This document shows, piece after piece, positions 5,626 through 5,904 of a stretch of DNA of 31,184 nucleotides. Made by a program: the position numbers and the translations under genes. Source of the DNA: Candidatus Micrarchaeia archaeon (GTDB lineage Archaea > Micrarchaeota > Micrarchaeia > CAILAH01); contig JAVZCB010000003.1 in assembly GCA_038874595.1 (NCBI GenBank), forward strand, positions 123,342 through 154,525, written 5' to 3'. Under the pieces are notes generated by a model. It worked only from the letters and a program-made list of their open reading frames with translations. It was not told the DNA's origin and ran no database searches. Positions within the stretch are counted from its first letter, which is position 1, and the number at the start of each line of letters is the position of its first letter.

Positions 5626-5904
5626 CGCCCCCACTGGGATTTGAACCCAGCCCTCAGCCTTTCCTTTACCCTCCATATCTCAGGGGGTTAGGTGTAGACC
5701 ACACGAGGGACAATCGTTTGGCAAAGCCAAACGATGCGCCATTCGCAAGTGCGAATGTGCGAGGGGGATGTGCCCCCTTCCATCAGTGCTACACCCCCTC
5801 CATATTTCAGGGGGTTAGGTGTAGACCACACGAGGGAAGGGGGATGTGCCCCCTTCCATCAGTGACCGCAGGGCCGCATACTATCCAGGCTATACTATGG
5901 GGGC
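5626..5904 (-). tRNA. tRNA-Arg(GCG) with ~205-nt anticodon-loop intron (approx. 5661-5865)
   Basis: Acceptor stem GCCCCCA/TGGGGGC plus G73; D arm with A20 (Arg identity element); anticodon arm CGGCC-CT-GCG-G|A-GGCTG; T arm CTGGG-TTCAAAT-CCCAG. Confidence 0.85.
5669..5864. repeat. Internal duplication inside the tRNA-Arg intron (A-X-B-A-B)
   Basis: A (42 bp) at 5669 and 5796; B (27 bp) at 5762 and 5838. X (5711-5761) is a 51-nt insert holding two perfect hairpins. Confidence 0.9.

What the first reader, a model, noticed from the sequence alone, without database searches (positions are those of the whole stretch)
5626..5904. tRNA-Arg(GCG) with a ~205-nt intron grown by duplication and hairpin insertion, with a poor BHB
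Seen: the intron is a 76-bp-period duplication (A-B twice) with a 51-nt double-hairpin insert in one copy. At the predicted 37/38 junction CUGC pairs only partly with the intron 3' end (AAGG), whereas an internal GUAG would pair fully. Known: most archaeal tRNA introns are a few tens of nt, and some DPANN splicing endonucleases accept relaxed BHB/BHL motifs. Inference: splicing may be sequential or nested, the intron may release a structured circular RNA, or the gene may be decaying.
Basis: partly seen in the sequence, partly recalled or inferred. Interest (0 to 1): 0.7.

Follow-up and report, generated by a model that had tools for sequence, protein, structure and literature searches.

The report
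Repeat-built long intron in tRNA-Arg
This is a real and probably essential arginine tRNA gene of a tiny hot-spring archaeon (Micrarchaeia) whose 205-base intron is assembled from small hairpin modules that also sit at the splice sites of other tRNA genes in the genome, and a sister strain carries only a 77-base version, so the intron is still changing.

Summary
Window 5626-5904 (minus strand) is a tRNA-Arg(GCG) gene with a 205-nt intron at 37/38. The intron reads U, B1, A1, GGUGUAG, B2, a 51-nt double hairpin, A2, UAAAGGAA. The central splicing helix has only 2 of 4 pairs (CUGC against AAGG).

The gene is not decaying.
- Its exons are identical in other genera, whose introns at the same position are 22-134 nt.
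- In three relatives that helix pairs 4/4, which fixes the splice site.
- It is the only CGU/CGC decoder I found, and those codons are 33% of Arg codons.
- An ε2-type (ARMAN-2-like) EndA and RtcB are present.

A weak helix is usual here: 14 of 26 anticodon-loop introns have 3 or fewer pairs. About 88% of tRNA genes carry introns.

I found no nested splice motif. The internal GUAG belongs to a module hairpin and is absent from a strain with a 77-nt single-unit intron.

The "duplication plus insert" is better read as module turnover. 121 nt are 100% identical to the T-loop intron of tRNA-Ile(UAU). All ten B-A copies lie in or beside tRNA genes, in both orientations.

Splicing was not observed, and no independent contig bridges the 205-nt layout. 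Earlier scan reports described the same phenomenon elsewhere in this genome.

The parts
5866..5904 (-). 5' exon, tRNA positions 1-37 (acceptor, D arm with A20, anticodon stem 5' strand, loop CUGCGG; anticodon GCG)
   Evidence: Sequence. ARAGORN -i. 100% identical in G001 and G008, and conserved in 8 relatives.
5865..5865 (-). First intron base (U), the third base of the 5' bulge G36-G37-U
   Evidence: Splice position fixed by orthologues with a 4/4 central helix.
5838..5864 (-). Module B1. It starts with CACUGAUGG and holds a 9-bp G/C hairpin. Its base (CAC.UGA) pairs with UCG.GUG at the start of A1 to form one long hairpin that begins at intron base 2.
   Evidence: Repeat family D2. Fold. Six near-identical copies in G000 by BLAST; ten B-A copies counting diverged ones.
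5796..5837 (-). Module A1
   Evidence: Repeat family D3 (41/42 identical to A2).
5789..5795 (-). Linker GGUGUAG.
   Evidence: Sequence. The same A-linker-B junction occurs in the tRNA-Ile(UAU) intron. It is absent from the 77-nt strain variant.
5762..5788 (-). Module B2 (27/27 identical to B1)
5711..5761 (-). 51-nt double-hairpin cargo ('insert') between B2 and A2
   Evidence: Inverted repeat I4. In G000 it is always found between a B and an A module: tRNA-Ile(UAU), tRNA-Cys and tRNA-Tyr introns.
5669..5710 (-). Module A2
   Evidence: Window 5670-5790 (the last two linker bases, B2, the insert and all but the last base of A2) is 121/121 identical to G000:C1:42171-42291.
5661..5668 (-). Intron tail UAAAGGAA. 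GG pairs with C32 and U33 (the residual central helix). The final AA plus A38 form the 3' bulge.
   Evidence: Orthologues have GCGG, GCAG, AUGG or GCUG at the same place.
5626..5660 (-). 3' exon, tRNA positions 38-73 (anticodon stem 3' strand, 4-nt variable region, T arm, acceptor 3' strand, discriminator G; no encoded CCA)
5914..5936 (-). A/T-rich TATA-like stretch 10-32 nt upstream of tRNA position 1 (a promoter by inference)
   Evidence: Sequence. Not tested further.
5605..5625 (-). T-run directly after the discriminator (a terminator by inference)
   Evidence: Sequence. Not tested further.

Best explanation
This is a functional tRNA-Arg(GCG) gene of a Micrarchaeia (DPANN) archaeon.

Splicing (inferred, not observed). 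The 205-nt anticodon-loop intron is removed at the canonical 37/38 position by the lineage's ε2-type splicing endonuclease. RtcB then joins the exons and probably circularises the intron. The splice signal is a relaxed bulge-helix-bulge:
- The anticodon stem and the 3-nt AA|A bulge are intact.
- The 5' bulge (G36, G37, U) is followed at intron base 2 by a self-contained hairpin (module B plus the start of A). This hairpin stands in for the outer helix.
- The central helix keeps only C32-G and U33-G with the intron tail. G34 and C35 could pair with the two bases after that hairpin, which would give a split central helix. This last point is my hypothesis.

Intron content (shown). The intron is a patchwork of a repeat family: B hairpin, A unit, GGUGUAG linker and an optional double-hairpin cargo. 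The family is tied to tRNA splice junctions throughout the genome. The extra 127-128 nt, relative to the 77-nt allele of a sister strain, arrived recently. The route was either tandem amplification or copying between introns; which one is inferred only.
For: Gene identity:
- All four Arg isoacceptors of G000 share the D-loop motif GGAUA (A20) and discriminator G.
- The true tRNA-Cys(GCA), with U73, is at C2:43987-44227.

Splice position:
- All seven intron-bearing relatives have the intron at 37/38, at 22, 34, 41, 46, 99, 133 and 134 nt.
- G007, G008 and G005 have 4/4 central helices (GCGG, GCGG, GCAG).
- The cut lies between the 2nd and 3rd bulge bases, as in the ARMAN-2 EndA-RNA structure (PMC12397907).

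Need for the gene:
- It is the only GCG gene in my census.
- CGU + CGC are 33.5% of Arg codons in 356 long ORFs.

Enzymes:
- The G000 EndA gene fragment at C7:3-733 is 94% identical to the 392-aa G001 protein.
- That protein matches PDB 4fz2 at E = 1.8e-124 over its full length.
- RtcB is at C3:116748-118052, E = 1.8e-172.
- The ε2 EndA cuts relaxed motifs (PMC3239211).

Genome norm:
- Central-helix pairs are 4/4 in 12 anticodon-loop introns, 3/4 in 11 and 2/4 in 3.
- A hairpin starts exactly at intron base 2 in 17 of 26.
- In the arm fold the CAC at intron bases 2-4 pairs with GUG at the start of A.
- The cost of forcing the BHB is 3.8 kcal/mol, against 2.4-12.3 in orthologues.

Module family:
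- 121 nt are 100% identical to the tRNA-Ile(UAU) T-loop intron.
- All 10 B-A copies lie in or within 350 nt of tRNA genes, in both orientations.
- B starts one to three bases after the 5' splice site in tRNA-Gly(GCC) of G003 and tRNA-Arg(UCU) of G008.

Strain difference: a 4221-nt contig from another study's hot-spring metagenome skips 5674-5807, with 6 other bases in its place. That gives a 77-nt single-unit intron.
Against: - No RNA data show a spliced product or a circular intron. The only RNA run laid (X6) held a diverged module copy.
- Only 2 of 4 central-helix pairs exist, and the energy model gives them a probability of about 0.002.
- The split-helix fold costs 8.5 kcal/mol above the MFE. 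Its two extra pairs could be chance.
- No independent contig bridges the whole 205-nt intron.
- 6.5% of the genome is missing, so a second Arg-GCG gene cannot be fully excluded.
- G002, in the same genus, has an intronless gene at the orthologous locus. The intron is therefore dispensable in evolution.
Confidence: 0.72

Rival explanations
1. Assembly artefact. The true intron in this strain is the 77-nt single unit, and the assembler threaded an extra loop (A-linker-B-insert) through repeats shared with the tRNA-Ile(UAU) intron.
For: - 121 nt are identical to another locus.
- In the probable source run (X1) only short pieces cover the intron and none bridges it. The piece with the insert has double depth.
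- The only bridging contig (X2) shows 77 nt.
Against: - The B2-linker-A1 junction has a G where the Ile locus has an A, so it is a sequence unique to this locus. It is present in X1 as an error-free 76-nt piece at the same depth (6.9) as the flanks (6.4-6.9).
- The contig enters and leaves through matching halves of one tRNA.
- The X2 allele differs inside A (TTATCA loop) and by 2 flank SNPs, so it is another strain rather than the same DNA.
Confidence: 0.12
2. Decaying gene or pseudogene. The bloated intron and the eroded splice helix prevent maturation, and CGY codons are read in some other way.
For: - The central helix is 2/4 with no contiguous outer helix.
- There is no expression evidence.
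- An intronless orthologue exists in G002.
Against: - The exons are 100% identical to G001 and G008 while the introns are unalignable.
- It is the sole GCG gene found.
- CGY codons occur at 15.8 per 1000 codons.
- Two other G000 tRNA genes, with no other copy in my census, also have 2/4 helices.
- The 77-nt allele has the same tail, so the weak helix predates the expansion.
Confidence: 0.06
3. Nested or sequential splicing. An inner intron (the 76- or 127-nt unit) is cut out first, using the internal GUAG paired to CUGC. The remainder is removed afterwards.
For: - CUGC:GUAG pairs 4/4 (geometry).
- An earlier scan report proposed nesting for tRNA-Val in this genome.
Against: - A scan of all cut pairs found no 3-4-3 motif that excises 76 or 127 nt or that joins the exons.
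- After GUAG there is no helix with the anticodon stem.
- GUAG is half of the module's own CUACACC/GGUGUAG hairpin.
- Pairing probability with CUGC is 0.0.
- The single-unit allele lacks the linker yet has the same splice ends.
Confidence: 0.04
4. The intron encodes a functional small RNA, such as a box C/D-like guide or another structured RNA, that is released after splicing. The duplication doubles its dose.
For: - The B...A unit runs from UGAUGG to CUGA, about 56 nt.
- The B...A frame is shared by the Arg introns of G000, G001 and G003.
- Two stand-alone tandem units exist at C3:54629-54751.
- Circular tRNA introns are known in archaea.
Against: - No Rfam family reaches even half its threshold.
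- The C-box-like word lacks its last A.
- CUGA is not kept in the stand-alone or X2 copies.
- The would-be guide has no exact target outside the modules, only 1-mismatch hits, one of them in tRNA-Ser(GGA).
- The module sits antisense in the tRNA-Cys and tRNA-Tyr introns.
Confidence: 0.06

Closest known systems
Disrupted tRNA genes and the three-unit ε2 splicing endonuclease of ARMAN-2, Candidatus Micrarchaeum acidiphilum (PMC3239211; PMC3488258; PMC12397907)
   Same: - Same phylum-level lineage. Records with the identical 5' exon are titled Candidatus Micrarchaeia or Micrarchaeota.
- Same EndA architecture: 392 aa, E = 1.8e-124 to PDB 4fz2.
- Many introns at 37/38 and in the T-loop, and relaxed motifs are tolerated.
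   Different: - The ARMAN-2 substrates that were tested have 13- and 25-nt introns, and 56% of its tRNA genes are disrupted.
- Here about 88% are disrupted (38 of 43 by my census).
- Introns reach 205-386 nt and are built from repeated modules.
- The central helix here has only 2 pairs, a case that has not been tested biochemically.
Transposed BHB introns of Thermoproteales (Fujishima et al. 2010, as summarised in PMC4090602)
   Same: [quoted passage not shown] Here the pair is Arg-GCG at 37/38 and Ile-UAU in the T-loop, 121/121 nt identical.
   Different: - What is shared here is a set of modules, not a whole intron.
- The modules occur in both orientations.
- They pile up in tandem.
- They also lie just outside tRNA genes, next to partial copies of tRNA 3' ends.
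- The endonuclease is ε2, not (αβ)2.
Canonical hBHBh' intron at 37/38 of the same tRNA in sister genera (G007 22 nt, G008 46 nt, G005 34 nt)
   Same: Same gene, same insertion point, same 3' bulge, and identical or near-identical exons.
   Different: Those introns have a 4/4 central helix. They are 4-9 times shorter and carry no B/A modules.
Box C/D guide-bearing intron of euryarchaeal tRNA-Trp (about 105 nt; cited in the reference list of PMC4090602; length from my own knowledge)
   Same: A long, structured cargo inside an anticodon-loop intron. The intron is released as a circle in several archaea (PMC12558985).
   Different: No valid C/D boxes, no guide-target match and no Rfam hit here. 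The module is orientation-independent.

Membership tests
Archaeal tRNA-Arg(GCG) gene | Cloverleaf: 7-bp acceptor stem, D arm with G18 G19, 5-bp anticodon stem, T arm with the GTTCAAATC-type loop | tested here: met
   Read. Found by ARAGORN -i and by my own scanners.
Archaeal tRNA-Arg(GCG) gene | Anticodon GCG after splicing, with Arg identity marks (A20, purine 73) rather than the Cys mark (U73) | tested here: met
   - Splicing at 37/38, fixed by orthologues, gives the loop CUGCGGA.
- The D-loop motif GGAUA and discriminator G73 are shared only by the four Arg genes of G000.
- tRNA-Cys with U73 lies elsewhere.
- That A20 and position 73 are identity elements is from general knowledge.
Strict hBHBh' (3-4-3) archaeal tRNA intron | Intron at 37/38 with a 3-nt 3' bulge next to the anticodon stem | tested here: met
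   AA|A bulge and a 5-bp stem.
Strict hBHBh' (3-4-3) archaeal tRNA intron | Four-bp central helix between positions 32-35 and the intron bases before the 3' bulge | tested here: not met
   CUGC against AAGG gives 2/4. Orthologues G007, G008 and G005 have 4/4.
Strict hBHBh' (3-4-3) archaeal tRNA intron | Outer helix h formed by intron bases contiguous with the central helix on both strands | tested here: not met
   h = 0 in strict geometry. A local hairpin starting at intron base 2 could replace it.
Relaxed (HBh'/BHL-type) substrate of ε2 EndA | An ε2 three-unit EndA is encoded by the organism | tested here: met
   - G000 holds a gene fragment at a contig end with an N-gap inside.
- Full-length orthologues give open frames of 385-446 aa in 7 relatives; the called ORF in G001 is 392 aa.
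- The G001 protein matches 4fz2 at E = 1.8e-124, covering residues 16-392.
Relaxed (HBh'/BHL-type) substrate of ε2 EndA | Actual cleavage at both sites and ligation | not testable with these tools
   No RNA run of this organism was found. RtcB is present.
Transposed or shared tRNA introns (Thermoproteales type) | Highly similar intron sequence in tRNA genes of different isoacceptor identity | tested here: met
   121/121 nt shared with the tRNA-Ile(UAU) T-loop intron, and 85-89% with the tRNA-Cys intron in antisense.
Box C/D sRNA-bearing intron | C box RUGAUGA, D box CUGA, a k-turn, and a 10-12-nt guide matching a target | tested here: not met
   The word is UGAUGG only. CUGA is not conserved among copies. 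There is no Rfam hit and no exact guide target outside the modules.
MITE-like DNA transposon | Terminal inverted repeats and target-site duplication | tested here: inconclusive
   None seen by eye at the unit ends. The repeat finder lists no terminal inverted repeat for the units. No systematic test was done.

The most novel reading that the evidence does not exclude
The B/A/cargo modules are an active, non-coding element family. It homes to the cut points of tRNA precursors and carries its own splice-site helix, a hairpin that starts at intron base 2. By doing so it creates, enlarges and exchanges tRNA introns. The 77-nt and 205-nt alleles, and the 121-nt identity with the tRNA-Ile intron, would then be snapshots of that process in a living population.
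Probability: 0.35. Interest if true: 0.75.

Novelty: new variant of a known kind. Interest (0 to 1): 0.5.

Why it matters
How archaeal tRNA introns arise, spread and grow is an open question. Thermoproteales gave indirect evidence for transposition, and a 2026 Asgard survey found no general route of arrival.

This one essential gene offers three comparisons:
- An ancestral short canonical intron in sister genera.
- A module-framed intron in the genus.
- Two alleles (77 and 205 nt) in co-existing strains, with a stretch identical to another tRNA's intron.

That makes the growth step datable and experimentally approachable.

It also sets a concrete limit case for the ε2 endonuclease. The substrate has two central-helix pairs, a 160-nt branch, and a local hairpin in place of the outer helix.

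Tried and rejected
- Default ARAGORN and Rfam at gathering threshold find no tRNA in the window. Rfam in E-value mode gives only chance matches, all below 23 bits against thresholds of 35-66.
- ARAGORN's label Cys-GCA is rejected. Its cut is 2 nt off, the orthologues fix 37/38, the discriminator is G, and tRNA-Cys is elsewhere.
- A strict BHB scan over all cut pairs found no motif joining the exons and none excising 76 or 127 nt. The many weak hits inside the G/C-rich repeats look like chance.
- Shifted splice registers (-2, -1, +1) give worse helices (my reading).
- Box C/D or guide reading: there is no exact target for the 12 nt upstream of CUGA or downstream of UGAUGG outside the modules themselves; the only others are 1-mismatch hits, one of them in tRNA-Ser(GGA).
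- The split-central-helix fold is 8.5 kcal/mol above the MFE. I keep it only as a hypothesis.
- My first two loose tRNA scanners produced mostly false positives. Only the stricter census was used.
- Two scans of JGI metagenome contigs, for the exon-B junction and for the 5' exon, found nothing.
The X6 RNA contig is a 7-mismatch module copy from another organism, not a spliced product.
- The three 29-nt repeats at 66-nt spacing downstream (5423-5583) looked CRISPR-like. They are local only, and one 'spacer' is a repeat found elsewhere in the genome.

Full report
**1. What is there**

Read on the minus strand, window 5904 to 5626 is a tRNA gene.
- The acceptor stem is 7/7 paired and the D stem is GUAU/GUAU with the loop AGCCUGGAUA.
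- The anticodon stem is CGGCC/GGCUG and the T arm is CUGGG-UUCAAAU-CCCAG.
- The discriminator is G and no CCA is encoded.
- The 5' exon ends with the loop bases CUGCGG. The 3' exon starts with A followed by GGCUG.
- An A/T-rich TATA-like stretch lies 10-32 nt upstream and a T-run follows the gene (these roles are inferred).

ARAGORN run with introns allowed reports the gene at exactly these ends with a 205-nt intron. Default ARAGORN and Rfam miss it.

In RNA order the intron (window 5865 down to 5661) reads:
- U
- B1 (27 nt)
- A1 (42 nt)
- GGUGUAG
- B2 (27/27 identical to B1)
- a 51-nt double hairpin
- A2 (41/42 identical to A1)
- UAAAGGAA

**2. Which tRNA, and where it is spliced**

ARAGORN places the cut 2 nt early and names the gene Cys-GCA. 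I reject that for three reasons.

First, the same gene exists in eight relatives from five genera.
- Seven carry an intron after the same CUGCG(G/A).
- Intron lengths are 22 nt (G007), 34 (G005), 41 (G006), 46 (G008), 99 (G004), 133 (G001, same genus) and 134 (G003).
- In G007, G008 and G005 the four intron bases before the 3' bulge (GCGG, GCGG, GCAG) pair 4/4 with C32-C35. This is a textbook 3-4-3 motif.
- With the cut between the second and third bulge base, as in the ARMAN-2 EndA-RNA structure (PMC12397907), that fixes the junction at 37/38 and the anticodon as GCG.

Second, the four Arg genes of this genome (UCU, UCG, CCG, GCG), and only they, share the D-loop motif GGAUA (A20) and discriminator G.

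Third, a proper tRNA-Cys(GCA) with U73 lies at C2:43987-44227.

**3. Is the gene alive?**

- The exons are 100% identical to those of G001 and G008, while the introns cannot be aligned outside their ends.
- My census found 43 tRNA genes (plus Cys and Tyr found by hand). It holds one GCG gene only.
- BLAST of the exons finds no second copy.
- CGU + CGC make up 33.5% of Arg codons, or 15.8 per 1000 codons, in 356 long ORFs.
- The splicing enzymes are present. An EndA gene fragment lies at a contig end. It is 94% identical to the 392-aa protein of the same genus.
- That protein matches the ARMAN-2 ε2 enzyme (PDB 4fz2) at E = 1.8e-124 over its full length.
- RtcB is at C3:116748-118052.

Decay is therefore unlikely. 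Two caveats remain. The genome is 93.5% complete. G002, in the same genus, has an intronless gene at the orthologous locus with the odd loop CCGCGAA.

**4. The splice signal**

- CUGC faces AAGG, which gives two pairs (C32-G, U33-G).
- There is no contiguous outer helix.
- The energy model gives the two pairs a probability of about 0.002.

This is normal for the genome.
- Among 26 anticodon-loop introns the central helix has 4/4 pairs in 12, 3/4 in 11 and 2/4 in 3 (Thr-CGU, Ser-GGA and this gene).
- A contiguous outer helix of at least 2 bp exists in only about 8.
- Instead, in 17 of 26 introns a hairpin begins exactly at intron base 2.
- In this gene the hairpin is B plus the first bases of A: CAC.UGA pairs with UCG.GUG under the 9-bp G/C stem.

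I therefore read the motif as follows: anticodon stem, AA|A bulge, short central helix, GG|U bulge, then a local hairpin acting as the outer helix. The rest of the intron branches off opposite the 5' bulge.

The two bases after the hairpin (G, U; they are G, C in G001) could pair with C35 and G34. That would complete a four-pair central helix whose 3' strand is split by the branch.
- The fold satisfies the 3-4-3 geometry.
- It costs 8.5 kcal/mol above the MFE.
- It rests on two pairs, so it is only a hypothesis.

Forcing the plain relaxed motif costs 3.8 kcal/mol here, against 2.4-12.3 kcal/mol in the orthologues. The ε2 enzyme is known to cut relaxed motifs (PMC3239211). A two-pair central helix has not been tested.

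**5. Nested splicing**

The internal GUAG does pair 4/4 with CUGC on paper. Several points count against a role for it.
- It is followed by no helix with the anticodon stem.
- It is half of the module's own CUACACC/GGUGUAG hairpin.
- Its pairing probability with the loop is 0.0.
- No 3-4-3 motif excises the 76- or 127-nt unit.
- The short allele described below has no linker at all.

**6. What the intron is made of**

The units are not private to this gene.
- Window 5670-5790 (the last two linker bases, B2, the insert and all but the last base of A2) is 121/121 identical to part of the T-loop intron of tRNA-Ile(UAU) at C1:42171-42291. That intron also has the A-linker-B junction.
- tRNA-Leu(UAA) starts its intron with one base and then B-A.
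- tRNA-Cys and tRNA-Tyr carry B-insert-A in antisense, with the B end 1-3 nt from the 3' splice site. There its complement supplies the central-helix strand.
- Two tandem B-A-linker units (77-nt period) lie 240-345 nt from tRNA-Ser(GGA).
- One antisense copy abuts a partial duplicate of the tRNA-Asn 3' end.

All ten copies in G000 are in or within 350 nt of tRNA genes. Such regions make up roughly 5% of the genome by my estimate.

In relatives, B starts at intron base 2 in tRNA-Gly(GCC) of G003 and at about base 3-4 in tRNA-Arg(UCU) of G008. G002 has at least 27 matches.

The Arg introns of G000, G001 and G003 share the B start and the A end but differ in the hairpins between them. The middle is therefore a turnover zone.

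**7. Strain polymorphism and reliability**

In a hot-spring metagenome from a different study (X2), one 4221-nt contig covers the locus with 2 flank SNPs.
- It skips 5674-5807, with TTATCA in its place.
- That gives a 77-nt intron: U, B, a variant A, and the same tail.
- So the weak tail predates the expansion, and the extra 127-128 nt is a recent, strain-level gain or loss.

In the probable source run (X1) only short pieces cover the intron.
- The B2-linker-A1 piece is error-free and at flank depth.
- It carries a G that distinguishes it from the Ile locus.
- No piece bridges the whole intron.

I put the chance of a mis-assembly at about 12%.

How the unit arrived cannot be decided from these data. 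The candidates are tandem amplification of a B-A-linker unit, insertion at the 5' splice site, and copying from or to the Ile intron.

**8. Comparison and novelty**

- The enzymology and the high intron load match ARMAN-2 (PMC3239211).
- Sharing of intron sequence between different tRNAs matches the Thermoproteales case (PMC4090602).
- New here are the modular, repeat-built nature and size of the intron, the orientation-independent placement of the modules at cut points, the local-hairpin form of the motif, and a live length polymorphism in an essential gene.
- I found no paper describing this in the library.

Earlier reports of this scan described the same phenomenon at other loci of this genome. 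I re-tested the parts that I use.

Noticed in passing
window 5423-5583: Three 29-nt direct repeats at 66-nt spacing lie just downstream of the tRNA gene and are found only here. One 38-nt stretch between them, which contains the palindrome GGCCACGCGTGGCC, is 100% identical to G000:C2:195732-195769.
   Followed up: partly
L030 (G002:C2:15200-15900), minus strand: The same-genus relative has an intronless tRNA-Arg(GCG) at the orthologous locus. Its anticodon loop is CCGCGAA (C33 and A37 in place of U33 and G37). This suggests precise intron loss followed by change.
   Followed up: partly
G000:C3:32640-32935 (minus): A tRNA-Tyr(GUA) gene missed by ARAGORN and Rfam. It has an antisense B-insert-A module butted to its 3' splice site and a second intron in the T-loop.
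   Followed up: partly
G000:C6:28440-28680: tRNA-Asn is followed by two or three partial copies of its own 3' end plus a 35-nt trailer. An antisense B-A module abuts one of the copies. The layout resembles attachment-site-like duplication.
   Followed up: no
G000:C3:54629-54950: Two stand-alone tandem B-A-linker units are followed by two repeats of about 90 nt. Those repeats begin with the reverse complement of the tRNA-Ser(GGA) 3' end. The Ser gene lies at C3:54974-55243.
   Followed up: no
L006, L007, L009 (G006, G005, G004): In genus g3 the same tRNA-Arg(GCG) carries a second intron in the T-loop, after UUCAAA. In G004 that intron starts with a B-like hairpin.
   Followed up: partly
G000:C7:1-733: The genome's only EndA gene runs off the contig start and has a 10-N scaffold gap inside. 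The assembly therefore lacks its N-terminal unit.
   Followed up: yes
whole genome G000: ARAGORN with introns allowed mislabels several genes. Arg-GCG is called Cys, Cys is called Gly-GCC, and Arg-UCU and Gln-CUG are called Pyl. Only 5 of about 43 tRNA genes are intron-free.
   Followed up: yes
window 5963-6631 (+): The ORF next to the tRNA gene begins with a motif that resembles Sua5/TsaC, the t6A37 synthesis enzyme. This is by eye only.
   Followed up: no
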